A program made the translations under genes and the position numbers. 64,000 nt of DNA, from the NCBI GenBank assembly GCA_034422515.1, contig DAOUJP010000010.1, forward strand, positions 200,123 through 264,122, read 5' to 3'. This stretch comes from Chloroflexota bacterium (GTDB lineage: Bacteria; Chloroflexota; UBA11872; UBA12225; JAJDUF01). This document shows, one piece after another, positions 6,714 through 59,519 of this stretch. Position 1 is the stretch's first letter. Every line of letters begins with the position of its first letter. The notes beneath the pieces are model-generated. The model saw only the letters and a program-made list of their open reading frames with translations, did no database searches and was not told the origin of the DNA.

Positions 6714-7376
6714 ATGTGGCCCAGACGCACTCTGCTGGCTGGCGGCATTTCCGTGCTGGCTCTTTCTCGCTCTGCTAAGGCGCAGAGTGCATTGAAGCAT
6801 GGCACAGTAGTACAACTCGATACGACACCACACATATGGGTTGCCGATTGGCAAGGTGTCCTTCATTGGGCAGGCGATACACGCGCTCTTCAAGGACGAC
6901 ATGTTGATTGGAGCAGGCACCGCCATGTATGGCTCCATACGCTAGAAGGTAACTACTTGCAGCGTGGATACGGCTACCAGGTTGGCGACCCTTGGCTTTC
7001 TCTTGGCTTGCTGAAGGACGGTGATCCTATTTACCTTCCCAAGTGGGAAACCAATTGGGCAGTACCAAAGCTGTACCACATACTCAACATCAGAGATGTT
7101 GAACTGTTTGGCATCAATGAGACGAACTACGGAAAGTTCGTTATAGATAGGACAGAGTGGGAACGACGCCATGGATTTGACGTGAACATATTGGAGCGCC
7201 ATTCTTTACCGTCTACAGTGCCAGATGTCTTTGCGGACTGCCATCAAGCTAGGGTACTATCTATCGGAAGGAGAGTTGATTTTGATGATGGCAGAGTGCG
7301 CTTTGCCTTTTGGCACAGTAGATTACCCTCTGTGCCTGACCATGACGGCGACGGTTGGGTATTGTGTGACGGGTAG
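6714..7376 (+). CDS. Hypothetical secreted protein in a low-GC island
   Basis: Signal-peptide-like N-terminus MWPRRTLLAGGISVLALSRSAKAQSA; no recognisable domain. Region GC is clearly below the genome background. Confidence 0.5.
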   Translation: MWPRRTLLAGGISVLALSRSAKAQSALKHGTVVQLDTTPHIWVADWQGVLHWAGDTRALQGRHVDWSRHRHVWLHTLEGNYLQRGYGYQVGDPWLSLGLLKDGDPIYLPKWETNWAVPKLYHILNIRDVELFGINETNYGKFVIDRTEWERRHGFDVNILERHSLPSTVPDVFADCHQARVLSIGRRVDFDDGRVRFAFWHSRLPSVPDHDGDGWVLCDG

Positions 7377-7524
7377 TATGGAGAAGAAAGGCTGTTGCGG
7401 TCGAGTGTTTCTAGCCTTTGGGCGGGCCAGGAATCTGCCTAGTGGGGAAAGGTGACGTGGCCAGTATACAACATCTTACTTGCTAAGGATGTTGAAGAGG
7501 TGAAAAACTAGAAAGGTAAGTAGA

Positions 7525-8310
7525 GTGAGCACGATTGTCGTCGGCAGAGTAAGTCTAGCGAATGGTGCAGTAGCTCCGGTGCAGTGGAATGATAGCGGGG
7601 AATTTAGTAGCTTTGATGAAGGAAATAGACGTGTCTTCATAAAATACAGTTGCATCGCTAAAGGCGGTGTCGTAATAGTGGAGTTTTTGTACGACCGTTC
7701 TTATGAGGTAGGCAGTACGTTCGAGGCAGCACGCCATATCATCAACAACGCAGTCCTAACCATCGTAGGAGAAAAAGGCATTGGCTTGTTTCCCACCATC
7801 GAATACTGCAAGACTGCCGACAACCAGATAGTGAGCGCAAGTCCGGCCAGAATTGATGAGCAGGCCCCTTTCGACTCCGATGCCTTTCGACAATATTTGG
7901 GTTCTACACCTGACCTGCGAAACGCTTTGGCAGACTATAATTACGGATTGCTACATCCGTATGACAGTCCATTATTCTTCTACAGAGCTATAGAAACACT
8001 AGCACATGCTGTGCGTAGCACCGTCAACAAGGAAAAGAGCAGCGAGAAGTTGACAAGCTCCGACTGGGACATCTTTCACAGCAAGCTAGGCACCAAAAGC
8101 TCAGACCTCAATCTCTTGCTAGAGTTCTCGAAGAAACACCGACATGGACACCGAGAACTATTTAGCGATGAGGAGCACACTAGCATGATGAAAACAACAC
8201 GTTCCTTCATCGTGGCAGGGATACAGTTTCTGATACGAGAAGGCACGCAGCCTATCGATGTTTACCGTCAACAGAGAGAGGAAGCCGAAGGTGGAATGGC
8301 AGTTCAATAA
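7525..8310 (+). CDS. Hypothetical protein in a low-GC island
   Basis: 261-aa ORF with AT-rich codon usage; no recognised motif. Confidence 0.45.
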   Translation: MSTIVVGRVSLANGAVAPVQWNDSGEFSSFDEGNRRVFIKYSCIAKGGVVIVEFLYDRSYEVGSTFEAARHIINNAVLTIVGEKGIGLFPTIEYCKTADNQIVSASPARIDEQAPFDSDAFRQYLGSTPDLRNALADYNYGLLHPYDSPLFFYRAIETLAHAVRSTVNKEKSSEKLTSSDWDIFHSKLGTKSSDLNLLLEFSKKHRHGHRELFSDEEHTSMMKTTRSFIVAGIQFLIREGTQPIDVYRQQREEAEGGMAVQ

Positions 8311-8422
8311 GAACGCCATCCCCATTGGCAGATCGCTCTGCATCTACTGCAAGCACGTGTATCCTACAATCTGACACATTGACCGTTCTTTCTTAGTTTG
8401 GGTGAGGTGAAGGGAGAGAACG

Positions 8423-8938
8423 ATGGCAGGTACGGTGAGCACTTTGCCAAAACGTGAGTATCGCCTACCTCATAACCGACCTGCCGTGCGCCAGCGTGCT
8501 CGCCTGCGGGCTGCTCGCCTGCGGAATGGCTGCCCCCGGCCCCTTCGTGCAAACTTTACCAACGTCCGCTCTTACGACTTTGATCCTAGACATCACAGGT
8601 GGTCGTGGGATGATGAGCACTACCTACCGCTGGCGCAGGCGGCACTGCAGGCCTTCCAAGAAAAGCCTTATGCTCCTGTCGAAGTGAGCCAGCCCGCACT
8701 GGACAACATAATGACGGGTAGCACAGAGGGCACTCGACAGAAACGACGTGCTGAGAAAGCTATCCTGGATTTGCTTAGGGAGCATGAAGTGACAGTGTGG
8801 TTCTCTGCCAAGTCCGAAGGCTTGTCCGTGCCGATCTCATGGTTAGAGCCGATAGTGGGCTGGGTGGGCAGAGACAGGCGCGGTCAGCGGATTGACCTTG
8901 TGACGGCAACTATTGAGCTATCTCCACGTCTAGCCTGA
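8423..8938 (+). CDS. Hypothetical protein with an Arg-rich N-terminus, in a low-GC island
   Basis: 171-aa ORF; N-terminal RQRARLRAARLRNG with the short direct DNA repeat CTCGCCTGCGG present twice; no recognised domain. Confidence 0.4.
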   Translation: MAGTVSTLPKREYRLPHNRPAVRQRARLRAARLRNGCPRPLRANFTNVRSYDFDPRHHRWSWDDEHYLPLAQAALQAFQEKPYAPVEVSQPALDNIMTGSTEGTRQKRRAEKAILDLLREHEVTVWFSAKSEGLSVPISWLEPIVGWVGRDRRGQRIDLVTATIELSPRLA

Positions 8939-9043
8939 CCGTACAATGAGGTAGGGGATGGGGCCATGGGAAGCTATCGGTCCTGCTTATCCTCTAGTCC
9001 GGGGAATCCTGATGCTGACAATCCCCTCACCCTGGCTCTCGCC

Positions 9044-25130: not shown

Positions 25131-25206
25131 GCGGGCATGGTGTAGTTGGTAACACGCGACCTTCCCAAGGTTGAGATCGAGGGTTCGAGTCCCTTTGCCC
25201 GCTCCC
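25131..25206 (+). tRNA. tRNA-Gly (anticodon CCC)
   Basis: GCGGGCA acceptor; D-loop AGTTGGTAA; anticodon stem CGACC/GGTTG with loop TTCCCAA; T-arm GGGTTCGAGTCCC; 3' TGCCCGC. CCA is not exactly encoded. Confidence 0.85.
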
Positions 25207-35547: not shown

Positions 35548-35600
35548 CACTCCTCACCCCCCGGCCCCCTCTCCACCAAGTGGAGAGGGGGAGTCGGCCG
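35548..35600. repeat. Family-D-like hairpin repeat (CCCCCTCTCCAC-CAAG-TGGAGAGGGGG)
   Basis: Variant of repeat D, between purC and the sulfatase gene. Confidence 0.7.
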
Positions 35601-35740
35601 AGGGCGGAGTCGTACTTCGTGGTCAGTTGGCGGGGAGAAAGGTCTGGTTTACCGTGAGCGTTGCCATTGAACTTGCTGCTCAGTGCTCGTGTCCGCTTGG
35701 CCTCATGCCTCTATTGAGTAGGCAGAGGCCGGATATGCTT

Positions 35741-36625
35741 TTACGCGACCTCGCGGCCGGTCAGGCGGCGGAGCGCGTCGGTGTACTTCTCTTGGGTCCG
35801 CGCGACCACCTCGGGCGGTAGCGGCGGGGCCGGCGGCGCTTTGTTCCAGCCAGTGGCGCTGAGGTAGTCGCGGACGTACTGTTTGTCGTAGCTGGGCGGG
35901 TTGCTGCCCGGCTCGTAGGTCTCCGTATCCCAGAAGCGCGACGAGTCCGGCGTCAGCAACTCATCAATCAAGATCAACTGACCCTCGGCGCTACCGTTGT
36001 CCTCGATGATGCCGAACTCCATCTTCGTATCGGCGATGATGATGCCGCGCTCCCGCGCTTGCTCCGCTGCGGCCGAGTAGACCGCGAGCGTCGCGTCGCG
36101 TAGCTGGGCCGCGAGCGGCCGGCCGACCATCGTTTCCACCTCCTCGAAGGTCAACGGCTCATCATGCCCGGTTTCGGCCTTGGTCGTTGGCGTGAAGATC
36201 GGCTCCGGGAGCTGCTGCGCCTCGATCAACCCCGCCGGCAGCCGAATGCCGCAGACGGTCCCCGACTTCTGGTACTCGGCCCAGCCCGAGCCGGTGATGT
36301 AGCCGCGCGCGACGCACTCGACGTCAATCCGCTCGGCCCGTCGCACCACCATGCTGCGACCGGTGAGCTGGGCGGCGTGTGCCTGTAGCTCCGCCGGATA
36401 CTCGTCCACGTCCGTTGTCAGCACGTGGTTGGGCAAGAGGTCTTGGGTCTGCTCGAACCAGTAGGCGGAGAGTTGGTTGAGCACCTTACCCTTCCCGGGG
36501 ATCGCCGTCGGCAGCACCACGTCGAACGCGGAGATGCGATCACTGACGACGATCAGTAGTTGGTCGCCCAGATCGTACACATCGCGTACCTTGTAGCGGA
36601 TAGCCAACTCCTCAAGCTGTGCCAT
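35741..36625 (-). CDS. purC: Phosphoribosylaminoimidazole-succinocarboxamide (SAICAR) synthase
   Basis: MAQLEELAIRYKVRDVYDLGDQLLIVVSDRISAFD...; own RBS AAGGAG 6 nt before the ATG; SAICAR_synt fold features throughout. Confidence 0.85.
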   Translation of the reverse strand: MAQLEELAIRYKVRDVYDLGDQLLIVVSDRISAFDVVLPTAIPGKGKVLNQLSAYWFEQTQDLLPNHVLTTDVDEYPAELQAHAAQLTGRSMVVRRAERIDVECVARGYITGSGWAEYQKSGTVCGIRLPAGLIEAQQLPEPIFTPTTKAETGHDEPLTFEEVETMVGRPLAAQLRDATLAVYSAAAEQARERGIIIADTKMEFGIIEDNGSAEGQLILIDELLTPDSSRFWDTETYEPGSNPPSYDKQYVRDYLSATGWNKAPPAPPLPPEVVARTQEKYTDALRRLTGREVA

Positions 36626-37252
36626 GACCTGCTCCTTTACTGCGGCTCTTGACTGCTGCTCGGCGATAGTGGGTTGCCGGGGAGCAAACCTCCTTTCATA
36701 CGTAGGTCCGAGGATGCGCCGCAGACGCTTGCGACCTTCCTGTATACGCCCCTTCACCGTAGTGATCGGTAGCTCCACAACCTCGGCGATCTTGCGGTAG
36801 CGCAGCCCGGCCACGTAGTACAGCGTGAGGGCCAGGCGCTGTGGTCGCGGCAAGGCCAGCAGGGCACGATTGAGGTCCTGGTGTAGCTCGCCGTGCTCGG
36901 CTGCACGCTCCGGGGACACTGCCCGCCCATCCTGCAGATCGCCCAAGGCGGGTGTATCGAGCGAGAGTGCCGGACGCCGCCGGCGACGCCAACGCAAACA
37001 CTCGTTGGCCACAATGCGGGCGAGCCAGCCGCCGAAGCGAGCCGGGTCGGCCAGGCTGTCGAGGTGCAGATACGCGGCGAGGAATGCCTGTTGGGCAACA
37101 TCCAAGGCATCTTCGCGGTGACCTAGATGGTAGTAAGCGAGTCCATAGGCCTCCGCCTGAAACCGCTCGACCAACTGCCCGAACGCGCCCTTATCCCCAG
37201 TCTGGCCGCGGCGGACTAGGTCGGCAGTGGATGAAGTCACTACGTCACTCAC
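36626..37252 (-). CDS. ECF sigma factor, in frame with and reading without a stop into purC
   Basis: Region 2 FLAAYLHLDSLADPARFGGWLARIVANECLRWRR; region 4 LPRPQRLALTLYYVAGLRYRKIAEVVELPITTVKGRIQEGRKRLRRIL. No stop codon before the purC ATG in the same frame. Confidence 0.6.
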
Positions 37253-37568
37253 GGGCGGCCTCCGTACTGGGCGCTGGCGAGGCGGCGGACTGGAAAGCGT
37301 CAGTGCGCCGCTGCGCCCCTCACAAGATACGATGCCGCGAGTCGGCGTTTGGGAAGAGGCCAGTTGCGGGGACGGGGTAGGTCCACTCCAGCGCGCCGAG
37401 CATCGTGATCCTCTACAAGTGATTCATCGTGAGCATCGGGGTTACACTCATGGTATAGTACGCGCGGCGACTACCAAGCAAGGAGACGGTGAGGTCGGCT
37501 GCGTTCGAGGAGCGCGCCGCGTTGGCGCGTGGCATGGTCTCGCCATCCGAATCAGGGGATGAGTCGTT

Positions 37569-38165
37569 ATGGTGAGCCGGAAGGATGGTTTCAGCGGGGA
37601 TTCCCAGGAGGCACATACTATAGATGATGTATATGCGAAGGTAAGGAGAGCGCTCTGTGGTTTCTTTAAATCGGATCGCGATTTGCTTGAAAAATGTGCA
37701 AACGAAAGGTCTATCACTCATAAACTAGCCGAGCATTTGCAGTGCCAGTTTAGGCATTTGAATGTGGATTGCGAATACAATAGACATGGTCTTAATGCCA
37801 AGATACTGCCTCGCTTTGCGGAGTGTATTGGTGAAGATGATTCAAGAGATAGGATGGTCTACCCGGATATTATCGTTCATCGGCGCGGAGAGGATAGATC
37901 CAACCTATTGGTGATTGAAGCTAAGAAGACTACCATGGAGGATATGGTATCGAAAAGCATGAAAAGAGGATTGAAGAGAGACAGGTGCAAATTGCGTGAA
38001 TTTACAAGAACACGCGGTTGCTACGAATACAAGTTTGGACTGTTGTTGGTATTTGACGTTGGTGAAGGTGGGAAGAAAATCTGTCGCGTCGAGTGTTTCA
38101 TCAAGGGGAAAAAGCGTAACAACACTGTCTGGGACTGTCTACGAGGCTTTCGCGGTGGTGGGTAA
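37569..38165 (+). CDS. PD-(D/E)xK-superfamily nuclease-like protein (low-GC island)
   Basis: CEYNRHG...YPDIIVHRRGEDRSNLLVIEAKK gives E...PD...(E)xK spacing; AT-rich codon usage; 198 aa. Confidence 0.55.
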   Translation: MVSRKDGFSGDSQEAHTIDDVYAKVRRALCGFFKSDRDLLEKCANERSITHKLAEHLQCQFRHLNVDCEYNRHGLNAKILPRFAECIGEDDSRDRMVYPDIIVHRRGEDRSNLLVIEAKKTTMEDMVSKSMKRGLKRDRCKLREFTRTRGCYEYKFGLLLVFDVGEGGKKICRVECFIKGKKRNNTVWDCLRGFRGGG

Positions 38166-38186
38166 TCGGGTAAGTGAGGGTGGACT

Positions 38187-38825
38187 ATGCGCCTACTGAT
38201 TGCTATATTTCTACTGCTACTTTCCTTGACTGTGCCAACTTCAAAGATTTTCGCTACGGATAGTGAACCTCGTCAGTGCGATTTTATACTTGGATTTGCT
38301 ACGCTCAAGGACTTGATTGATAGAGCAGAAGGCACAGAAAAAGTTGGCGATTGTCTTGAAGATCAACGCTTCAACCCAGAGAACGGTGATGCACTCCAAT
38401 AGACTACGGGTGGGCTATTGGTATGGCGTAAGGCTGATAACTGGACAGCATTTACGGATGGCTACCGTACCTGGATAAACGGACCGTATGGTCTACAGTC
38501 ACGTCTCAACACAGAATCATTTACTTGGGAAATGGGGGACACAGATGTACCCCTATTCAAGATGGATACAATTGAATATGATCGTTTTAACGCCTACAAG
38601 AATCATGTAGGTCAGACTGTCCGCATTATGGGCAGGGTAGCTAGAGGGGTATTGTTTGGATGGGGAAGCGATGGAGTGACACATTACTATGACAATATTG
38701 GGATAACATTTCTGGATGTAGGAGTATTTACGCCAGGGGGGGTGCTCACTATAGAGTGCCACACAACTTTATGGAAAGAGTCTCTTGTTACTATCGCAGT
38801 GATAGTGACAGGGACAAGTTTCTGA
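38187..38825 (+). pseudogene. Paralogue of the N-terminal domain of the SodC-like protein (45557-46336), interrupted by an in-frame TAG
   Basis: Signal peptide, then CDFILGFATLKDLIDRAEGTEKVGDCLEDQRFNPENGDALQ-stop-TTGGLLVWRKADNWTAFTDGYRTWING, collinear with CTFILGFKTLKGLIAAAEGPATVGECLENQRFDAHGNAAQRTAGGLMVWRKADNWTAFSDGYRTWVNQ. Both ORF segments (38187-38402 and 38418-38825) are in one frame. Confidence 0.6.
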
Positions 38826-39032
38826 CTGTGGAATATGGGGATGCCGTAGTAGTGGAAGGTGTAGTGACACCAGTAGGATCACCATCTACCAGCGTTGATC
38901 TAAGGAGATGCCGCCTTATCAGTAAAGTGGTAGGATTACCGTCTATAGAGCGTTAGTCTACGACCTGGCTCGCTCAGTGCTGATCTCGCCTGATTCTAAC
39001 GTTCAGAATCACTGCGGTCCGCTCTCCGCTGG

Positions 39033-50253: not shown

Positions 50254-51867
50254 TTACTCCTGGGGCCGTAGTGGCGCCGTGCTCACGGCTGGCGCGGCGC
50301 GTGGCGCCCGCTGATAGGTGACGTTGCCCATGTGAGGATAGGCGATCCCTTGCCCGGCGAACAGGTCGGCAACGGTAAGTAGCTGCAAGCCTGGGTAATC
50401 CTGGTCCCAGCCTGGGGAATGATAAGGGTCGGCGCTGGCGGCTTCCTGCCGCATTGCTCGCGTCGGCTCTTGCAGCGAGATGAATACGCCGATAGCAGCC
50501 TGCTCGCGTTGGACGACGCCCCGGAGGTCGCGGACGTGCGCCACGCCGGTCTTGCCGGCCTTGACCGACAAGATGATCTGCTTGGTGCGGCCCTTGGGAC
50601 CTTCATCGTGGAAGTAGAGCCGGCCGTCAATGCCGCGGTCTGCTCCCTTCTTTTGCTCTAGTGGCCGCGCCCCCACCTTCCCTAGTGCCCACCACTGGAA
50701 CTGATACGGGTCTTGTTGGGCGAGTGCTTGGGCGTCCGGCAGCGCCTTGGGTTCTCCAATCACCTCGTAAGTTTGGGCGATGTCCGGTCCGAACGCATCC
50801 TGGAGCCGATGGCGAATGAGGTTAATGGCGAGATGGGTGATGTCAATGCCGATCCAGCGGCGTCCGAGCTTTTGCGCCGCTGCAATTGCGGTCCCACAGC
50901 CGCAGAACGGATCGAGGACGACCGCGCCTTCATTGGAGGAAGCCAGAATGATGCGCTCCAACAGGGCTTCCGGTTTCTGGGTCGGATAGCCAAGGCGCTC
51001 CTTGGACTGAGCGGACACATTCCCTATGTCGGTCCAGAGATTCGTCGGTGCTCGTCCGCCAGACAAATAGGTCTTGCGGTATGGCCGTCCACTCTTTGAC
51101 CATACTAGGCGCCCTTCATTGTCAAGAGCCTCCAACTTACTGCGTTCCATGCGCCAGCCGAATTCTGGAACATAGCCTTTGTATTCATATGCGAGATTAG
51201 GTCTAGGCCCCATTGATGCCGTGCGTATGATCTCGTGGAGTCGATACTTCCCTCGTTCATCCTCGTAGCGATAAAAGTTAGCTACATACGACTCGTCGTG
51301 GGGAACGTATACGCGATTCCATATACGCTTCTTCGTTTTCGCGTAAAACAGGATCGTATCGGTCACATGAGCGAAACGACTGGCGTCATTGTGCGAACTG
51401 GTCCGCTGCCAGATAACCTCACTCCGAAAGCTCTCCCCACCGAAAATTGCGTCCAGCAATAGTTTGAGGTAGTGGCTGGCGTTCGAATCACAGTGGAGAT
51501 AGAGACTGCCCGTTGGCTTCAAGACGCGATGCAGCTCGACGAGGCGCGGCGCCATCATGGACAGGTACGCCAGCATATCGTTGTCGCCGAGGAAGAGGCG
51601 GAAGGCTTGCAGGACCTCGGAGACTTTGCCGCCGGCTTCCACGACCTCTCGGTACGCGGTTGCTGCTGCCTGGTCCCAGTGCCAGGTGTCCTCGAAGGCC
51701 TTGATCTGTGCTGCCGACTGTGAGCCGTCTCGTTCGGCGAACAGCACGTTATAGCTCTGGTTGCTCTTGAAGGGCGGATCGAGGTAGATGAGGTCTACCG
51801 ACTCGTCGGGGACATGCTCGCGGAGCACTTCGAGGTTGTCACCGTAATACAGCGTGTTGTCTGGCAT
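50254..51867 (-). CDS. Beta-class N6-adenine/N4-cytosine DNA methyltransferase fused to a C-terminal Mrr-like (PD-(D/E)xK) restriction-endonuclease domain
   Basis: Motif IV IYLDPPFKSN precedes motif I VVLDPFCGCGTAIAAAQKLGR (beta permutation). The C-terminal approximately 170 aa contains GADRGIDGRLYF...KQIILSVKAGK...AAIGVFISLQEPT, which resembles the Mrr catalytic-domain pattern (D.GIDG...Q/SxK). Confidence 0.75.
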   Translation of the reverse strand: MPDNTLYYGDNLEVLREHVPDESVDLIYLDPPFKSNQSYNVLFAERDGSQSAAQIKAFEDTWHWDQAAATAYREVVEAGGKVSEVLQAFRLFLGDNDMLAYLSMMAPRLVELHRVLKPTGSLYLHCDSNASHYLKLLLDAIFGGESFRSEVIWQRTSSHNDASRFAHVTDTILFYAKTKKRIWNRVYVPHDESYVANFYRYEDERGKYRLHEIIRTASMGPRPNLAYEYKGYVPEFGWRMERSKLEALDNEGRLVWSKSGRPYRKTYLSGGRAPTNLWTDIGNVSAQSKERLGYPTQKPEALLERIILASSNEGAVVLDPFCGCGTAIAAAQKLGRRWIGIDITHLAINLIRHRLQDAFGPDIAQTYEVIGEPKALPDAQALAQQDPYQFQWWALGKVGARPLEQKKGADRGIDGRLYFHDEGPKGRTKQIILSVKAGKTGVAHVRDLRGVVQREQAAIGVFISLQEPTRAMRQEAASADPYHSPGWDQDYPGLQLLTVADLFAGQGIAYPHMGNVTYQRAPRAAPAVSTAPLRPQE

Positions 51868-51885
51868 GGCTGTCTCACACCTAAT

Positions 51886-52893
51886 CTAAGCCCCGATTCC
51901 CGATCCGTCAGGTGTAGATGGTCTGGGTTTAATATAGAAGCACGAATGAAAATTATCCTTGATCTCATCCGCCATCGGTTCCTCGCTCTCGCGCTCATAG
52001 CTGACCTTAACATAGGCATCGTAGGAAACACGCACTAGGGTGTCCTCGCAGAGGCTCAGGCGCTCTCTGACCTCCTTTTCCGCTGCGGGCGCCGCGGTGG
52101 ACGGTGATCGCTTGCAGAGGCCCAGGTACTCTCTGACCTCCTTTTCGGGATTCCATCGAGTGGAAAACCGAAGCTGTACCGTAGATAGTGGGCCAACTCT
52201 CACATCATGCACATGTATTGCCCTTACCAATTCATAATTTCTGACAAATGTCCCGACACGAAACTGGCCTTCATAGTGGCGAATACGCCAGCTATCCATC
52301 CAACTGTTACGCAAGACGATGCTGGATCGAAATTCAATCTCATCATCGTGCCAAAAGGCGTGCTCCACGGGCCCACTCTCAATACTGAGTCCTTTATGTT
52401 CGTGGTCGGCGATCTCATTATCCTTGACTACCAGTTGCCGGATGCGTTTCGGATCCACCGCTGGGCCTAAGACAGGAATAGGGACAGTACGAATAGGAAA
52501 CTCCCACTCAGACCTAATGAGTCTATTCAATTTCACCTTCAGCACCGCTTCCATGGGCCGGCCCTCTTGTGGCGGCTCCCAGCAATCGACAACGGCTTCA
52601 ACTTCCTCGGGCAGTCCTGACACGGGCAACGGGACAGTTATTTCGGCACTGGTTTGGGCGTTCTTGACGTGCCTCTCGCACTTTGCACGATTCTTGACTT
52701 TCCAAACGAGCTTTACACCATCCACCCGCCCGATGCTGGGGGAGGTACTCGTGAACTTGATGCGGAAGGAACCAGCTTGGCCAGAAGCGACAGGGGGTAA
52801 GATTTCTACTCTGAGGTCCGGCATCACCAGTGAGCGCAAGAATCCGACCACAAACGGCAGCCATCCGGGTGAGGGCGCAGAGATAGGGTCCAT
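51886..52893 (-). CDS. Hypothetical protein (low GC) immediately upstream of the MTase::Mrr gene in the same operon
   Basis: Approximately 335-aa ORF with the internal repeat EKEVRE(Y/R)L(G/S)LC twice; start trimmed to MDPISAP because the ORF-track N-terminus overlaps the CoA-transferase gene; no recognised domain. Confidence 0.45.
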   Translation of the reverse strand: MDPISAPSPGWLPFVVGFLRSLVMPDLRVEILPPVASGQAGSFRIKFTSTSPSIGRVDGVKLVWKVKNRAKCERHVKNAQTSAEITVPLPVSGLPEEVEAVVDCWEPPQEGRPMEAVLKVKLNRLIRSEWEFPIRTVPIPVLGPAVDPKRIRQLVVKDNEIADHEHKGLSIESGPVEHAFWHDDEIEFRSSIVLRNSWMDSWRIRHYEGQFRVGTFVRNYELVRAIHVHDVRVGPLSTVQLRFSTRWNPEKEVREYLGLCKRSPSTAAPAAEKEVRERLSLCEDTLVRVSYDAYVKVSYERESEEPMADEIKDNFHSCFYIKPRPSTPDGSGIGA

Positions 52894-52900
52894 GGGCTTA

Positions 52901-54475
52901 CTATACCGGAGCGAGGCGCATTGGCTCGGGGTGGAAGAGGCGGGGGTCCATCGGGCGGAGGGGGGCTTTGATGCGCGGTTGGAAGGCCATTTGTGCGAGG
53001 ACATCGCGCTCCAGGTCCACGCCGGGGGCCAGCTCGGTCAGGGTCAGGCCCGCGGGGGTGAGAGTGAACACGGCCCGCTCCGTGACGTAGAGGACCGGCC
53101 GGCCGGCGGCCTGGGCCAAGGCGCCGTTGAAGGTGACTTGCTCGACCTGCCCGACGAGCTTCTGCTGCCGGCCTTCCTGCCGGATACGCAGGGCGCCGTC
53201 GTCAATCGTTACGGCGAGGCCGCCGGCCGTAAACGTGCCGCAGAAGACGACCCGCTTGGCGTTCTGGCTGATGTTGACGAAGCCGCCGGCGCCGGGCATC
53301 ACGCGACCGAAACGGCTGACGTTGACGTTGCCCTGCGCGTCAATCTGGGCCGCGCCCAGGCAGGCGATGTCGAGGCCACCGCCGTCGTAGAAGTCGAACA
53401 TATACGGCGCATCTATCAACGCCGTAGGCATATACGAGGCGCCGAACGAGAGGCCGCCAGCGGGCACGCCGCCAATGGCCCCGGTTTCGACGGTCAGGAC
53501 GAGATCGTCCATGATTCCTTCTTCGGCAGCAACCGGCGCGACGGCTTCCGGCAGGCCGATGCCCAGGTTCACGATGTCACCCGGCCGTAGCTCAAGGGCT
53601 GCCCGGCGGGCGATCACCTTGCGGGCGTCCAGAGGATGCCGGGGGAGCGCCGGCAGGTCGGCGCTCATATCGGCCACGTAGGCGGGATTGAACCGTTCAT
53701 CGAACGTCTGCCAATGCTCGTCCGGGTCCGCGACGACGACTGTATCCACAAGGATGCCGGGAATTCTTATGTCGCGCAGTGGGAGGCGGGAGGCGCTCAC
53801 GCGCTCCACTTGTGCAATCACGCGGCCGCCGCAGTTATGCACGGCTTGGGCGATGCTCAACATCTCGCCGTAGACCGCTTCCCGCTCCATGCTGATGTTG
53901 CCGTCGGGATCGGCGGTCGTGCCGCGGATGAGGCCGACATCCAGCTCTAGGCGGGGGTAGAAGAGGTACTCGGCGCCGTTCAAGCGGACCACCTGCACCA
54001 GATCGGTGGGAGTAGCCTGGGGGTTGATGCGCCCACCTTCCAGGCGCGGATCGGCAAAGGTGCGGAGACCGACTTGGGTGATGGTACCGGGTTTGCCGGC
54101 GGCAATGTCGCGGAAGAGGTGTATGATGACGCCTTGCGGGAAGTTGTAGCCTTCGATCTTGCCGGCCAAGGCCAACTCACAGATGTGCGGGGCCAGTCCC
54201 CAGTGACCGCCGATCACGCGGCGCAGCAGGCCCTCGTGACCCAGGTGATTGAGGCCGCGACGCCCCCGGTCACCCTGCCCGGCGCCGTAGATCAAGGTGA
54301 GGCCGCGCGGCCGGCCAGTGCGGAGGAAGCGCGTCTCCAGGCCGGCGGTCAGTGCCTCCGGGTGACCGATTCCGACGAACCCGCCGACCGCCACGGCGTC
54401 GCCGTCTTGCACCGCCGCGACGGCCGCATCAAGCGACGTGACTTTGCCCGCAACTGGCTCGTTTTCCATGCTCAT
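52901..54475 (-). CDS. Acyl-CoA:acetate/3-ketoacid CoA-transferase (fused alpha-beta subunits)
   Basis: CoA_trans family motifs across approximately 520 aa: [10 protein letters not shown], catalytic Glu region ...SENG-like MEREAVY..., C-terminal beta-subunit-like half. Confidence 0.85.
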
Positions 54476-55825: not shown

Positions 55826-56092
55826 GTGGTAGTCGGTAACTTCGATCTCCATCGCGCCTTGGGTCGTCCAACGAAAGCATACACGCCACTGGCCGTTGAT
55901 GCGAATGCTGTGTTGGCCCTTCCGGTTACCATTTGGGGGGCTTGAGGTGCAGAGAAGGCGGCGGCTTAAGGGCAGCCAGCCGCTCCCTCTCCACAACCAT
56001 CTTCGGCTCTTTGGGCGCCTGGCGCTTGGTCGGCAGGTAAGGGTACCGTTCCCCTTTGGGTATCCGTACCGTGCGCTTGTTCTTAAATCGTC
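55826..56092 (-). pseudogene. higB: higB toxin (RelE/ParE-fold HigB) disrupted by a frameshift
   Basis: N-terminal frame MKPRRFKNKRTVRIPKG...KPPPSLHLKPPKW-stop. The C-terminal HigB hallmark ...GNRKGQHSIRINGQWRVCFRWTTQGAMEIEVTDYH-stop lies in the +1 frame; it ends 14 nt before the higA ATG. Confidence 0.65.
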
Positions 56093-56990
56093 TCGGTTTC
56101 ATGGTGAGACTCCTTTCTCTGCTCTCGGCGTTCGTACCACAGACACCCCAGCGTTAAAAACACAGGGGCCGGGGAAACCCGGCCCCAATGTGTGTAGGCC
56201 TCCTTGATGTAACAGGAGGTTGTGAAGTTAAACCTCACCGTGTCGGATGGTTTGTTGCTGAAGACGGTGTATCGTTTGGAAGGTTGCCCGCAGTATTCTA
56301 GGACGTTCTAGTATTTCTACGTCAAGCTATCGGAAGATCGTTTGTAGTGCTCTGACCACAAGGGCAAGAGTGATCAGGTAGTAAGCGAATTGAATAAAGT
56401 CGTACTCCATTCAGGTCTCCTTTCCGGTCGACGCTGCGGGCGCCGTCAACCTGTATTTTTTTGGAGCGTACCAAGTAAAAACATCTACTCGGCACGATTC
56501 CATCTCTGGTGCCAGCGGTCGTGACGAGTTCTATTTCAGAAGTTTCCGGCAGTAAATCTGTTGAGATGGAAGTGTGTGATATCAGCGTGAAAAGTAATCC
56601 CGTAGTGACCTATACGGGATTGCACCGTGCTCTCCAGCCGCTAGGCTGTATTTACAGCCACAAAGAATCTTTACCTCAAAGATAACAATTGCTATTATGT
56701 AAGGACATGTAGACGCCAGAACACCTATGCCGGATTTTTCGCGATATCATCTAATTTTTTATTTGCTTACTAGAAAGACTGGAAGGCGCTGTACACCTCC
56801 TGGTAGGGAGCGGAGGTATAGAAGACTGGGAGAATACCTCTCAGTATCCATGGTACCTCCTAGGTCTACAGTAGTCAAGTAGAACGAATGGACTACTGGA
56901 GCTGGCTGGAACCTACACCAGAGCCATCAAGCCCCACAGGACGGGAGTGCCAGCTTGGCAAAGTCATTAGTAGCGACATAGCGTAGCCCC

Positions 56991-59519
56991 TCAGGTTGCG
57001 GGACAGCCCCACTGGCCCTCGACGCTGTGTATGCCCTCAATCCACACCCGGAAGGCGTCGTTAGCTGGCACGCACAGCCCCGTGTTGTGGAAGTGAAAAT
57101 TATGCAGCCTCGTCAACCTCGTCAGACTCTGCGGTAGCGGCCCGGTCAAGTTGTTACTGTAGAACCACAGCGACGTGAGGTTAGTCAGATCGCCCCACTC
57201 AGCCGGTATTGGGCCTGTCAACTCGTTGTTGGTGAGGCTCAACCAAGTGAGGCTAGTCAGATTACCCCACTCAGCCGGTAGCGGCCCGGTCAGGTTGTTG
57301 TCACCGAGGTTCAAATAGGTAAGGCTGGTCAGATTGCCCCACTCGGCCGGTAGCGGCCCGGTCAGGTCGTTGCCGTCGAGGTTCAGTCTCTCAAGTCTGG
57401 TCAGTCTGCCCAGTTCCGCTGGCAGCGGCCCCGCCAGGCTATTACCGAGACCTACAAATCCACTGACTGAACCGAGGTCCAGGCTGGTGACGCGGCCGTT
57501 GCGGTCAGTTTCGACGCCGGCCCAGAGCCTGAGTGGTGCGTCGCTCAACCAGTTCCGTTTGATCCTCCAGTTCGCGCCGTCCGTCGCATTGTAGAGCGCA
57601 ACGAGCACGGCCCGGTCCGAGGCCGGTCCTGGCTCCGGGGTGTTCGTTGGGCTGGGTGTGGGAGATGCCGGCGGCTCCGGCGTAGGTCTGGCGGTAGCCG
57701 CTGGCGCATTGGCCGGAGGCACTGCTGCTGTGTTGCTGCAGAACGGGAGGCCCGCCTCGTCGAAGTCGTTCCTAGCGACACGGCGCAGTGCCGGCGGCAG
57801 GCATCCGGTGAGTGCATTGCCGCCGAGGGACAAGAACCCCAGGTTGGCGAGCGAACCGAGTTGAGGCGGTACGACGCCCGACAGTTGATTGATGTTGAGA
57901 GTCAACGCTCGCAGGTTGACGAGAGAGCCTAGTTGGGGTGGGATAGGCCCGGACAGTTGGTTGGTGTCGAGCCACAACTGCTCCAGGTAGGTGAGGGCGC
58001 CCAGTTCGGGCGGAATGGGGCCGGACAACTGGTTTTCGCTGAGTCCTAATCCCTGCAATTTGGCGATGGCGCCCAACTGAGGCGGGATAGTGCCGGTCAA
58101 CTGGTTGTCGCTGAGATACAACACCTCCAGGTTAGCGATGGCACCCAGTTCCGGCGGGATGGTACCGGTCAGTTGGTTGTGGCCGAGGGACAACTCCCGC
58201 AGTTGCGAAAGGGTGCCCAACTGGGAGGGGGTCGTGCCGGTCAATTGGTTGACGTGGAGCCAGAGGCCCTGTAGCGAGACGAGGGTACCCAATTCGGGCG
58301 GGACGGGGCCGGTCAGTTGGTTGTAGCCGAGGGACAACTCCCGCAGTTGCGAGAGGGTGCCCAATTGCGAGGGGATGGCGCCAGTCAGTCGGTTGTCTCG
58401 GAGGTCCAACGATTGCAAGTGAGTGAGAGCGCCCAACTGAGGGGGAATAGTGCCGGTCAGCTTGCGATCAGACAGGACCAGCATGACTACCCGATGCGGC
58501 GCGCCGCCGATGGTGATGCCGTCCCAGTTGGCAACAGCAAGGTCCGCGCTCCAGTTCAGCGTGGCGCTACCGGCCAGCGTGTCTTTAGCTTGCAGCAGCG
58601 CCGTGCAATCCGCGACTAGGCCGGGGTTGTCCTGTGGTGCGGAAACCGCGATGCCATTGGCGCATGGTGATACGGTGGCCGTGGGAGCGGTGGCCGTGGG
58701 CACACCGGTCGGTGTCAAGGTAGGGGTAGGTACAGTCGTCGGAGTCACTGGGGGAGAGATGGCCGCCGCGGTAACGGTTGATGCACCGGTCGGCGTCAAG
58801 GTAGGGGTAGGTACAGCCGTCGGAGTCGCTGGCGGTGTGGTAGCAGTGGCGGTACGCTCCGTAGTCCCCGCACCCGTCTCACCAAACCAGCGCACTGCCA
58901 CCGCCTTGACTCTGGGAATGGTAATGCTCTGCCCAGAGATGGACTCGTACCGTTCTAACCAGGCTACTGCGCCGACAAACTCTATCCGGTCGTCCTCCAG
59001 CAACCGCCGCCCCGTGTAGTCGGCAAGATAGACAATGGCGCTGCTTAAAGAGTCCGGCTCGACATCGACTCGAAAGTCGTAGGTGTCTTCCCCATGCTCG
59101 ATGACTTGGACAATCTTGCCGCGGAAGTAGAAGTGCTGCCCGATGTACTGCTCGTTGTTTCTGAACAGTTCTCTATAGCCGATAGTCGGAATCTGTGCTC
59201 TGCGCTCCTCCCAGGTGGGCGTAGCGGTAGCTGCTGCCTGGCGGGAAGGCACTTGCTGGACCACCGGTGACGCAGCGGCCTCGGGGCGTGGCTCGGTCTC
59301 CTGGTCGGAGAACGAGACGGCTAAGGCGATCACGACGATGGCGAGGCCAACCAACAAGGATGTCGTTACCCCGAGCAGCCACAGGAGTAGGCGCCGGCAG
59401 CCCCCACTCTGCCGGCCAAGTAGCCGGTCACTGACACGCACTAAGCGACTGTGGAAGAGGGACAGATCCACCTTACCGGCGTCGAATGAATCTACATTTG
59501 GTGGGGACTTCTCGCTCAT
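56991..59519 (-). CDS. Large plant-type leucine-rich-repeat (LRR) protein with N-terminal TM anchor and Pro/Thr-rich linkers
   Basis: TM LLLWLLGVTTSLLVGLAIVVIAL; PT linkers TPTAVPTPTLTPTG twice; more than 12 tandem 24-residue repeats LxxLxxLxLxxNxLTGxIPxxLGx and a second LRR block at the C-terminus (GNLTSLTYLNLGDNNLTGPLPAEWG). Confidence 0.85.
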   Translation of the reverse strand: MSEKSPPNVDSFDAGKVDLSLFHSRLVRVSDRLLGRQSGGCRRLLLWLLGVTTSLLVGLAIVVIALAVSFSDQETEPRPEAAASPVVQQVPSRQAAATATPTWEERRAQIPTIGYRELFRNNEQYIGQHFYFRGKIVQVIEHGEDTYDFRVDVEPDSLSSAIVYLADYTGRRLLEDDRIEFVGAVAWLERYESISGQSITIPRVKAVAVRWFGETGAGTTERTATATTPPATPTAVPTPTLTPTGASTVTAAAISPPVTPTTVPTPTLTPTGVPTATAPTATVSPCANGIAVSAPQDNPGLVADCTALLQAKDTLAGSATLNWSADLAVANWDGITIGGAPHRVVMLVLSDRKLTGTIPPQLGALTHLQSLDLRDNRLTGAIPSQLGTLSQLRELSLGYNQLTGPVPPELGTLVSLQGLWLHVNQLTGTTPSQLGTLSQLRELSLGHNQLTGTIPPELGAIANLEVLYLSDNQLTGTIPPQLGAIAKLQGLGLSENQLSGPIPPELGALTYLEQLWLDTNQLSGPIPPQLGSLVNLRALTLNINQLSGVVPPQLGSLANLGFLSLGGNALTGCLPPALRRVARNDFDEAGLPFCSNTAAVPPANAPAATARPTPEPPASPTPSPTNTPEPGPASDRAVLVALYNATDGANWRIKRNWLSDAPLRLWAGVETDRNGRVTSLDLGSVSGFVGLGNSLAGPLPAELGRLTRLERLNLDGNDLTGPLPAEWGNLTSLTYLNLGDNNLTGPLPAEWGNLTSLTWLSLTNNELTGPIPAEWGDLTNLTSLWFYSNNLTGPLPQSLTRLTRLHNFHFHNTGLCVPANDAFRVWIEGIHSVEGQWGCPAT

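What the first reader, a model, noticed from the sequence alone, without database searches (positions are those of the whole stretch)
35741..37252. ECF sigma factor ORF reads in frame, with no stop, into purC
A complete ECF sigma (regions 2 and 4) continues through a 28-aa linker directly into the purC Met, which has its own AAGGAG SD 6 nt upstream. The sigma gene has therefore lost its stop, giving a sigma::PurC fusion, or is a sequencing artefact, or there is programmed coupling. No anti-sigma gene is adjacent. A sigma factor covalently fused to a purine-biosynthesis enzyme would be unprecedented.
Basis: seen in the sequence. Interest (0 to 1): 0.55.

Follow-up and report, generated by a model that had tools for sequence, protein, structure and literature searches.

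The report
Real sigma factor–PurC chimeric gene
A soil Chloroflexota lineage carries a real, inherited gene in which an alternative sigma factor lost its own tail domain to a spare copy of the purine enzyme PurC; this is not a lost stop codon or a sequencing error, and its function is untested.

Summary
The 503-codon ORF (35741-37252, minus strand) is real. It encodes ECF sigma regions 2 and 4, a roughly 35-residue linker, and SAICAR synthetase.

- No stop codon was lost.
- Met210 and its AAGGAG are not the purC start.

In close relatives the same locus holds a 474-479-aa sigma gene that shares the linker up to MAQLEELAIRY and then continues into a ~260-aa C-terminal domain. In the window that domain was replaced by a 955-bp piece of a pur operon: purC from codon 16 to its stop, the spacer, and the first 10 codons of a hicB-like gene. 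The old sigma gene's last four codons and stop survive as a relic.

The identical junction (AIRY|KVRD) occurs in at least six further genomes or contigs, from both long-read and Illumina assemblies. One complete chromosome also keeps a normal purC in its pur operon.

Both halves are under purifying selection. The only conserved PurC residue lost is the Gly of the ATP-binding GK motif.

Two unrelated ECF-PurC fusions and several MerR-PurC fusions also exist in public data.

Verdict: a genuine new variant of ECF sigma factor with a C-terminal extension; function unproven.

The parts
37327..37351 (-). ECF-type promoter-like motif CAAAC-N15-CGTAT, about 75-100 nt upstream of the start codon. Candidate autoregulated promoter.
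   Evidence: The block TTCCCAAACG...GGCATCGTATCT is conserved in all eight fusion and sigma-CTD loci aligned. It is the only match in the 64-kb window, against 0.11 expected by chance. The function is inferred.
37259..37263 (-). Shine-Dalgarno GGAGG, 6 nt upstream of the GTG start codon (37250-37252).
   Evidence: Read directly from the sequence. L004 has ATG at the same position.
36698..37252 (-). ECF sigma core, codons 1-185 (sigma region 2 aa 27-93, region 4.2 aa 125-177).
   Evidence: Pfam and NCBIfam hits. 84% nucleotide identity to the sigma-CTD gene of L001 at the syntenic locus. dN/dS 0.08-0.21 among six fusion orthologues.
36593..36697 (-). Linker, codons 186-220, inherited from the ancestral sigma-CTD gene. 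It contains AAGGAG (36632-36637), Met210 (36623-36625) and MAQLEELAIRY.
   Evidence: Shared with all sigma-CTD relatives and with L087. AlphaFold2 gives pLDDT below 50 for aa 186-206. Residues 216-219 (LAIR) are predicted to form the first beta strand of the PurC fold.
36592..36593 (-). Left recombination junction (Y220 | K221), with only 1-2 nt of microhomology.
   Evidence: Homology to L001 (sigma-CTD) ends at 36592, and homology to L002/L009 (purC codon 16) begins at 36592/36593. The junction sequence is identical in L003-L007.
35741..36592 (-). PurC (SAICAR synthetase) moiety, codons 221-503 plus the stop. It corresponds to native purC codons 16-298.
   Evidence: NF010568 at 414 bits. 88-93% nucleotide identity to native purC of relatives. 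80 of 81 near-invariant PurC positions are kept, the exception being G->Y220. AlphaFold2 model pLDDT 91, TM-score 0.90 to yeast SAICAR synthase 2cnq. dN/dS 0.07.
35638..35740 (-). Pur-operon 3' flank carried along with purC: a 73-nt spacer plus the first 10 codons (MATLTVNQTF, 35638-35667) of a hicB-like antitoxin gene.
   Evidence: Matches the hicB-like genes of L002 (MATLTGGQTF) and L090 (95% over 74 nt). The same flank is present in L004.
35623..35637 (-). Relic of the last four codons and stop (LPAN*) of the ancestral sigma-CTD gene. This is the right-hand junction.
   Evidence: CTCCCCGCCAACTGA is identical to the 3' end of the sigma-CTD genes of L001 and L012. Synteny with L001 resumes at 35638.
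35552..35594 (.). Perfect GC-rich hairpin between the chimeric gene and the downstream sulfatase gene. Possibly a terminator or a REP-like element.
   Evidence: Read from the sequence. Similar copies lie downstream of the sigma-CTD genes and in L003. The terminator scan did not call it because it has no T tract.

Best explanation
This is a genuine, vertically inherited chimeric gene.

Shown:
- An ECF sigma gene of a narrow clade of uncultured soil Chloroflexota originally carried its own ~260-aa C-terminal domain (weakly BFN-like) and has no neighbouring anti-sigma gene.
- Two illegitimate recombination junctions replaced codons 221 to about 474 of that gene with a 955-bp piece of a pur operon. 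The piece runs from purC codon 16 to its stop, through the spacer, and into the first 10 codons of a hicB-like gene.
- The donor purC was a spare copy. A sister genome with the fusion still has a normal purC in its pur operon.
- The resulting ORF is translated from the sigma start. It encodes sigma2-sigma4, a ~30-aa linker predicted to be disordered, and a nearly complete SAICAR synthetase.
- The missing first beta strand of that enzyme is predicted to be supplied by the sigma-derived residues LAIR.

Inferred:
- Both halves stay intact and constrained, and the enzyme sits where ECF sigma factors carry cis-acting regulatory extensions. The protein therefore most likely acts as an ECF sigma factor whose regulatory extension is now a ligand-binding, possibly still catalytic, PurC domain.
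- That would couple sigma activity or stability to purine-pathway ligands (ATP, CAIR, aspartate, SAICAR), in the manner of a trigger enzyme.
- It is transcribed from its own ECF-type promoter.
For: Anatomy of the replacement:
- Window 38149-36592 matches the sigma-CTD locus L001.
- Window 36592-35711 matches native purC of L002.
- Window 35638-33000 matches L001 again.
- The left junction has 1-2 nt of microhomology.
- The hicB start and the LPAN* relic mark the right junction.

Reality and inheritance:
- The same junction is in L004, L005 and L007 at the syntenic locus, in L006 and L003 at a second locus, and in P0278, P0280 and P0282.
- L005 comes from an Illumina/MEGAHIT assembly (contig names prefixed k141). 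The others appear to be long-read assemblies (complete or megabase-scale contigs; the assembly method was not checked).

Paralogy:
- OZ243944.1 holds both the fusion (L004) and a native purC in purD-purE-purB-purC-purS-purQ-purL (L002).

Constraint:
- dN/dS is 0.08-0.21 for the sigma part and 0.01-0.12 for the PurC part, at dS 0.16-0.42.
- PurC dN/dS is 0.074 in fusions against 0.089 in native copies.
- I found no gene-conversion tracts between fusion and native copies.
- 80 of 81 conserved PurC positions are kept.
- The AlphaFold2 model has pLDDT 91 and TM-score 0.90 to 2cnq, with LAIR as strand 1.

Context:
- No Pfam-recognisable anti-sigma gene nearby.
- C-terminal extensions are the second most common mode of ECF regulation and correlate with the absence of an anti-sigma factor (PMC7826278).
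- A conserved CAAAC-N15-CGTAT motif lies upstream.

Recurrence:
- Two other ECF-PurC fusions exist with unrelated sigma parts (27-41% identity) and different junctions. One of them is conserved in two organisms.
- MerR-PurC fusions occur in at least three distant clusters.
Against: - No expression, proteomic or biochemical data exist. The regulatory role is pure inference.
- The C-terminal partner is not fixed. Close relatives keep the old domain (L001, L012), and one genome has both alleles (L006 and L012). At the syntenic locus the old domain also decays into three ORFs (L088).
- Decayed copies of the fusion exist: L090 has a 715-bp internal deletion and a frameshift, and L003 has a +1 G. 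It is therefore dispensable in some lineages.
- The Gly of the ATP-site G-K-x-K/R motif is replaced by Tyr. Gly16-Lys19 are named as ATP-site residues in human PAICS (PMC9376930).
- PurC is found fused to many unrelated partners in metagenome protein sets, including an AI-2E transporter, TyrRS, MnmA and EF-hand domains. Chance fusions therefore form a real background.
- The junction was not found in JGI metagenome contigs.
Confidence: 0.55

Rival explanations
1. Tolerated evolutionary accident. The chimera is real, but no new function was selected. The sigma part works or idles without its old tail, and the PurC part is a redundant isozyme or inert passenger. The allele drifts and spreads by homologous recombination among related strains.
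For: - The old and new alleles alternate at one locus among close relatives. Sigma and PurC trees are star-like, with the allele types interleaved.
- Decayed copies exist (L090, possibly L003) and the ancestral gene has decayed in L088.
- A native purC is retained in the sister genome.
- The ATP-motif Gly is lost.
- Miscellaneous PurC fusions are common in databases.
Against: - The ORF is intact in seven of nine versions seen (L090 carries an internal deletion and a frameshift, L003 a +1 G), despite dS around 0.3.
- dN/dS of the PurC part is as low as in native purC, and this holds without detectable gene-conversion tracts.
- An extra copy is kept at a second locus in a genome that still has the ancestral gene.
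- Transcription-factor fusions to PurC recur independently.
Confidence: 0.3
2. Two products from one ORF. The inherited AAGGAG-N6-ATG at Met210 acts as an internal start, so a free 294-aa PurC isozyme (MAQLEELAIRYKVRD...) is made under control of the ECF promoter. The covalent fusion would be a by-product.
For: - A good SD with 6-nt spacing lies before ATG 36623-36625.
- The motif is conserved in all relatives and in a 51%-identical homologue.
- The product would be 294 aa against 298 aa for native PurC.
Against: - The motif also encodes the conserved residues K-E-x-[VI]-M, and AAG and GAG are the expected codons at 65% GC. Its conservation therefore need not reflect initiation.
- Ribosomes starting at the sigma start still read through, because no stop exists.
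- In the ancestor the same motif precedes the unrelated C-terminal domain.
Confidence: 0.12
3. One reading: adjacent sigma and purC genes were joined by loss of the sigma stop codon. Or the join is a sequencing or assembly artefact.
For: Only the bare fact that the ORF has no stop. Spurious read-through ORFs do occur in this GC-rich clade, for example the 887-aa ADH-sigma ORF P0288.
Against: - In relatives purC lies in the pur operon, about 1.5 Mb from the sigma locus.
- The ancestral sigma ORF continues past this point into its own domain.
- PurC lacks its first 15 codons.
- The junction is identical in at least six independent assemblies that differ by 7-11% in nucleotide sequence.
Confidence: 0.02

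Closest known systems
ECF sigma factors with fused C-terminal regulatory extensions: ECF41/56 SnoaL-like, ECF42 TPR, ECF238 Cys-rich (Casas-Pastor et al. 2021, PMC7826278; Wecke et al. 2012, PMC3426412)
   Same: - A sigma2-sigma4 core followed by an extension of more than 50 aa.
- No anti-sigma gene nearby.
- An ECF-like promoter upstream of its own gene.
   Different: - The extension is a full-size, nearly intact central-metabolism enzyme, a type not listed among the described extensions.
- It is not fixed within the sigma clade. It replaced a different, older extension and coexists with it in one genome.
- Co-evolution of core and extension has not been shown.
Trigger enzymes, meaning enzyme-regulator fusions such as BirA, NadR and PutA (from my own knowledge of the field)
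   Same: One polypeptide combines a transcription module with a catalytic domain whose conserved residues are kept. This suggests metabolite-coupled control of transcription.
   Different: - Those proteins are repressors with HTH or RHH domains, not RNA polymerase sigma subunits.
- Their dual function has been shown experimentally.
- Here one ATP-motif residue is altered and nothing has been tested.
The ancestral sigma-CTD gene of the same clade (P0019, P0011, P0013, P0018, P0022, P0024; loci L001 and L012)
   Same: - Same locus and same promoter block.
- Sigma core 88-92% identical in nucleotides.
- Same linker up to MAQLEELAIRY.
   Different: It ends in a ~260-aa domain with only a weak BFN_dom hit (E = 0.018) instead of PurC. 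The family is very narrow, with 15 hits.
Other PurC fusions: animal PAICS (PurC-PurE), and the PurE-PurC, PurD-PurC and PurC-PurS fusions seen here
   Same: PurC tolerates covalent partners at either end.
   Different: Those partners are enzymes of the same pathway, which suggests substrate channelling. Here the partner is a transcription initiation factor.
Uncharacterised ECF-PurC fusions (P0009; P0017/P0122) and MerR-PurC fusions (P0003, P0049, P0124, P0175, P0199) in public metagenomes
   Same: - An N-terminal transcription module followed by a C-terminal PurC with an intact catalytic signature.
- They stand alone, outside pur operons.
   Different: - Independent origins: the sigma parts are 25-41% identical and the linkers are unrelated.
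- They keep the native RGKVRD N-terminus, whereas the window's fusion lost it.

Membership tests
ECF (group 4) sigma-70 family | Only regions sigma2 and sigma4 are present, and family models score above threshold. | tested here: met
   Sigma70_r2 at 49.7 bits, Sigma70_r4_2 at 44.3 bits, TIGR02937 at 86.8 bits against a cutoff of 42.9. No region 3 or 1.1.
ECF sigma with C-terminal regulatory extension | An extension longer than 50 aa fused after sigma4. | tested here: met
   About 320 aa follow region 4.2.
ECF sigma with C-terminal regulatory extension | No cognate anti-sigma factor encoded nearby. | tested here: met
   The seven flanking ORFs scanned give sulfatase, AAA ATPase, ADH, thioredoxin-like, or no Pfam hit. 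There is no zf-HC2 or RskA-type domain. This test is limited to Pfam-detectable anti-sigma factors.
ECF sigma with C-terminal regulatory extension | The extension type is conserved across the ECF group and co-evolves with the core. | tested here: not met
   The closest relatives carry a different extension at the same locus (L001, L012). The sigma-core tree interleaves the two allele types.
ECF sigma with C-terminal regulatory extension | The extension modulates sigma activity. | not testable with these tools
   Needs in vitro transcription or genetics.
SAICAR synthetase (PurC, EC 6.3.2.6) | The family model scores above its curated cutoff, and the fold matches. | tested here: met
   NF010568 at 414 bits against 251. 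PF01259 at 241.6 bits. AlphaFold2 model TM-score 0.90 to 2cnq and 0.85 to 3r9r.
SAICAR synthetase (PurC, EC 6.3.2.6) | N-terminal ATP-site motif G-K-x-K/R. | tested here: not met
   The motif reads Y220-K-V-R. Gly is present in all 65 stand-alone relatives aligned and in every one of the ~40 diverse 50%-cluster representatives whose sequences I read. The Gly-Lys-Thr-Lys motif is described as ATP-site residues in PAICS (PMC9376930). Lys, Val and Arg are kept.
SAICAR synthetase (PurC, EC 6.3.2.6) | The remaining conserved or catalytic positions. | tested here: met
   80 of 81 positions conserved in at least 64 of 65 stand-alone PurCs are retained.
SAICAR synthetase (PurC, EC 6.3.2.6) | Catalytic activity, and a role as the cell's PurC. 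| not testable with these tools
   A sister genome has a separate purC in its pur operon. No other pur gene lies in the window.
   purC lies in the pur operon about 1.5 Mb away in OZ243944.1. The relatives' sigma ORF has no stop at this position.

The most novel reading that the evidence does not exclude
PurC may be a recurrently recruited metabolite-sensing or trigger-enzyme module for transcription factors. It has been fused at least three times independently to ECF sigma factors and several times to MerR DNA-binding domains. Such fusions would wire the status of purine intermediates (ATP, CAIR, aspartate, SAICAR) directly to promoter selection by RNA polymerase. The window's gene would be the first sigma factor regulated in cis by a central-metabolism enzyme domain.
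Probability: 0.2. Interest if true: 0.8.

Novelty: new variant of a known kind. Interest (0 to 1): 0.5.

Why it matters
If the fusion protein is functional, it extends the known ECF regulatory extensions (SnoaL-like, TPR, Cys-rich and others) to a full metabolic enzyme. It would also give a simple system for asking whether a sigma factor can be controlled directly by a purine-pathway ligand.

The locus is also an unusually clear record of how a chimeric gene forms:
- Both illegitimate junctions are preserved.
- The donor operon can be identified from a 10-codon hicB stub.
- A 15-nt relic of the replaced gene remains.
- Ancestral, derived, duplicated and decayed alleles are all available in related genomes.

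If the fusion turns out to be neutral, it remains a caution. A continuous two-domain ORF, and even low dN/dS, do not by themselves establish a new function.

Tried and rejected
1. Exact-protein look-up of the 503-aa product: not on record. The source genome is not in the collections; the best match is 95% identical.
2. Idea that this sigma carries a swappable set of C-terminal cassettes (cluster members of 358, 368 and 887 aa): rejected. The 358-aa proteins are the upstream ADH, linked into the cluster by an 887-aa read-through ORF. The 368-aa protein is a truncated sigma-CTD.
3. Idea that the old C-terminal domain is a separate gene in a distant relative (P0300): rejected. The contig starts 24 nt upstream and the frame is open.
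4. Gene conversion from native purC as the source of the low dN/dS: a sliding-window comparison shows no identical tracts, including the same-genome pair L004/L002.
5. Junction search in JGI metagenome contigs, first exact and then fully degenerate: 0 hits.
6. Rfam scan of the window: only one tRNA and no purine or ZTP riboswitch.
7. Sigma-70 promoter and terminator scans around the gene: nothing found.
8. Literature searches for ECF + SAICAR and for MerR + SAICAR synthetase + fusion: nothing relevant.
9. Mixed alignments of sigma-only, PurC-only and fusion proteins (A1, A2) were misaligned by MAFFT. I did not use them for modelling, so only the linker + PurC part was folded. No full-length model was made, so nothing can be said about sigma-PurC contacts.
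10. Locus B (L006) was checked for transposase or integrase genes: none seen.
Full report
**Observation**

The minus-strand ORF 35741..37252 is continuous for 503 codons. It starts at GTG 37250-37252, which is preceded by GGAGG. Pfam places Sigma70_r2 at aa 27-93, Sigma70_r4_2 at aa 125-177 and SAICAR_synt at aa 221-473. NCBIfam gives the PurC equivalog NF010568 at 414 bits (cutoff 251) and the ECF superfamily model at 86.8 bits (cutoff 42.9). The bare observation therefore holds: an ECF sigma factor reads in frame into a PurC.

**What the 'linker' and the 'purC Met' really are**

A search of 5.8 billion protein clusters returned, besides ordinary ~298-aa PurCs, a set of 474-479-aa proteins (P0011, P0013, P0018, P0019, P0022, P0024).
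- They are 91-94% identical to the window protein over its first ~220 residues.
- They share the whole linker, including ...AVKEQ[VI]MAQLEELAIRY.
- They then continue as TSAGERAGIVLLK... into a ~260-aa domain with no Pfam family above threshold. The only hit is weak, to BFN_dom at E = 0.018.

Native PurC of the closest complete genome (P0002) starts MQESSLPGVSLLTRGKVRD. The window reads ...MAQLEELAIRY|KVRDVYDLGD. So Met210 and the AAGGAG before it belong to the sigma gene, not to purC. The PurC part has lost its own first 15 codons.

**How the chimera arose**

The relative L001 (a 5.18-Mb contig) has thioredoxin-like, ADH, sigma-CTD, sulfatase and AAA ATPase genes in the same order as the window. 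BLASTN comparison shows:

| Window coordinates | Matches | Identity |
|---|---|---|
| 38149-36592 | L001 up to sigma codon 220 | 84% |
| 36592-35711 | purC of L002, from codon 16 to 31 nt past the stop | 88% |
| 35638-33000 | L001 again | 89% |

- The left junction shares only 1-2 nt.
- Downstream of the purC stop the window carries a 73-nt spacer. After it come ATGGCAACGCTCACGGTAAACCAGACCTTT (MATLTVNQTF), the start of the hicB-like gene that follows purC in the L002 pur operon (MATLTGGQTF).
- That stub is joined directly to CTCCCCGCCAACTGA, the last four codons and stop (LPAN*) of the ancestral sigma-CTD gene.
- Together, a 955-bp pur-operon fragment replaced about 760 bp of the sigma gene by two illegitimate joins. 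No stop codon was lost.

**Is it real?**

A scan of one genome per species, together with cluster members, found the identical junction in these places:
- OZ243944.1 (L004), OY759972.1 (L007, same as P0280) and JAJDZR01 (L005, Illumina/MEGAHIT), all at the syntenic locus.
- OZ242293.1 (L006) and an ENA contig (L003), at a second locus between GH32 and an oxidoreductase gene.
- P0278 and P0282.

Nucleotide identity to the window is 89-93%. The junction 25-mer is invariant apart from one wobble base. An artefact is excluded.

Other points bearing on inheritance:
- OZ242293.1 keeps the ancestral sigma-CTD at the syntenic locus (L012) as well as the fusion at the second locus.
- OZ243944.1 holds both the fusion and a normal purC inside purD-purE-purB-purC-hicB-purS-purQ-purL, about 1.5 Mb away.
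- The window itself has no other pur gene.

**Constraint**

- Among six fusion orthologues, dN/dS is 0.08-0.21 for the sigma core and 0.01-0.12 for PurC, at dS 0.16-0.42. The short linker is less constrained.
- PurC dN/dS is 0.074 in fusions and 0.089 among native copies.
- Fusion and native sequences interleave in star-like trees, for PurC and for the sigma core.
- Sliding windows show no conversion tracts, including in the same-genome pair. The constraint is therefore probably direct.
- Of 81 positions conserved in at least 64 of 65 stand-alone PurCs, the window deviates only at the junction residue, where Gly becomes Tyr220.
- That Gly opens the G-K-x-K/R motif, which is invariant in every one of the ~40 diverse cluster representatives whose sequences I read. 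It is listed among the ATP-site residues of human PAICS (PMC9376930).
- An AlphaFold2 model of residues 186-503 has pLDDT 91 and pTM 0.88. Residues 186-206 are disordered, and the sigma-derived L216-R219 form the first strand in place of native LLTR. The model superposes on yeast and Mycobacterium abscessus SAICAR synthetases with TM-scores of 0.85-0.90 (sequence matches).

**Signs of dispensability**

- L090 holds a copy at a third locus with a 715-bp internal deletion and a frameshift.
- L003 has one extra G in a G run, which may be a sequencing error.
- The ancestral sigma-CTD gene is split into three ORFs in GCA_022826725.1.
- The sigma-CTD family is very narrow, with 15 hits.
- The junction is absent from JGI metagenome contigs.

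**Regulatory context**

- A block TTCCCAAACG-N13-GGCATCGTATCT lies about 75-100 nt upstream and is conserved in all eight loci. Its core, CAAAC-N15-CGTAT, occurs once in the window against 0.11 expected.
- It resembles ECF promoters of the SigW type, AAAC-N16-CGTA. That comparison rests on my own knowledge and the function is inferred.
- No Pfam-recognisable anti-sigma gene flanks the locus.
[quoted passage not shown] The passages I retrieved list SnoaL-like, TPR, Cys-rich, DUF1835 and transmembrane extensions, and a term search of the main text for 'enzymatic' found nothing (PMC7826278).

**Recurrence elsewhere**

- P0009 (505 aa) and P0017/P0122 (489 aa; 91-94% identical to each other) are ECF-PurC fusions. 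Their sigma parts are only 25-41% identical to the window's and to each other, their linkers are unrelated, and RGKVRD is intact. They stand alone, outside pur operons. These are independent events.
- MerR-PurC fusions occur in at least three distant 50%-identity clusters and in several Chloroflexota contigs. Their PurC positions are almost fully conserved.
- Against over-reading this: the same survey shows PurC fused to PurE, PurD, PurS, an AI-2E transporter, PdxT-like, EF-hand, MnmA, TyrRS and ASCH domains. Incidental or mis-called fusions are a real background.
- I found no paper on either sigma-PurC or MerR-PurC fusions.

**Interpretation**

The origin and reality of the chimera are shown. 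Its function is inferred.

- *Most likely reading (about 0.55):* the product is an ECF sigma factor carrying a near-intact PurC in the position of a cis-regulatory extension. It would be a trigger-enzyme-like arrangement that may link sigma activity to purine-pathway ligands.
- *Main rival (about 0.3):* a tolerated accident with no selected new function.
- *Further possibility (about 0.12):* internal initiation at Met210, giving a free PurC isozyme under ECF control. This is compatible with either reading.

**Verdict**

This is a genuine, clade-restricted sigma::PurC chimeric gene, and a new variant of the known class of ECF sigma factors with C-terminal extensions. Interest is moderate (0.5). 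It would be high only if the regulatory coupling is shown experimentally.

Noticed in passing
L008 3779-8448 (OZ244848.1): The pur operon reads purB, a purC 5' fragment (~57 codons), a MerR::purC fusion (P0003; a divergent purC copy with a truncated C-terminus), a full native purC, then purS. This looks like an insertion or duplication that used purC as the recombination site.
   Followed up: partly
Proteins P0003, P0040, P0049 (locus L086), P0064, P0085, P0124, P0175, P0199: MerR DNA-binding domain fused to a full-length PurC, in at least three distant 50%-identity clusters. Their composition ranges from Firmicutes-like to actinobacteria-like to Chloroflexota. Catalytic positions are intact. 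I found no literature on them.
   Followed up: partly
Window 37400-39000: A low-GC island (46-56% against ~65%) lies directly upstream of the sigma promoter. It has three plus-strand ORFs (37569-38165, 38187-38402, 38418-38825) with no Pfam hit. It is partly shared with L001 and L007 and absent from L004, L005 and L012.
   Followed up: partly
Window 7000-9000, 51000-53000, 56000-57000: Further low-GC stretches (48-56%) in an otherwise 62-72% GC window. They may be acquired islands.
   Followed up: no
Window 35552-35594; L003 4463-4505; downstream of sigma-CTD in L001 and L012: A perfect GC-rich hairpin, CCCCCTCTCCAC-loop-GTGGAGAGGGGG, recurs at several intergenic sites. It may be a REP-like element or a terminator without a T tract.
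   Followed up: no
L002 9079-11745: Toxin-antitoxin-like small genes (hicB-like, HEPN-like) are interspersed between purC, purS, purQ and purL in the pur operon of the sister genome. The hicB stub in the window comes from an arrangement of this kind.
   Followed up: partly
L090 5001-5858 (ERZ23495173 scaffold_663): A third genomic location holds a decayed copy of the fusion: sigma region 2 is joined to the C-terminal half of PurC by a 715-bp deletion, and there is also a frameshift. A full hicB-like gene lies 1.4 kb away on the other strand.
   Followed up: partly
Protein P0288 (887 aa, 23-kb ENA contig): The upstream ADH gene reads in frame through the intergenic region into the sigma-CTD gene. 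This is an example of spurious or frameshift-driven read-through ORFs in this GC-rich clade.
   Followed up: no
L088 4001-5423 (GCA_022826725.1) and L089: The ancestral sigma-CTD gene is split into three ORFs (204 + 81 + 200 aa) at the syntenic locus. The same split is seen in two assemblies, which suggests pseudogenisation.
   Followed up: partly
L087 1-30, and all sigma-CTD and fusion loci: An in-frame AAGGAG-N6-ATG (K-E-x-[VI]-M) at the start of the C-terminal part is conserved even in a 51%-identical homologue. A conserved internal translation start cannot be excluded.
   Followed up: partly
Protein P0121 (507 aa): A PurC with an internal duplication of about 190 residues. This is either a tandem partial duplication or an assembly artefact.
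   Followed up: no
Window 25131-25203: A single tRNA gene. It is the only Rfam match in the window.
   Followed up: no
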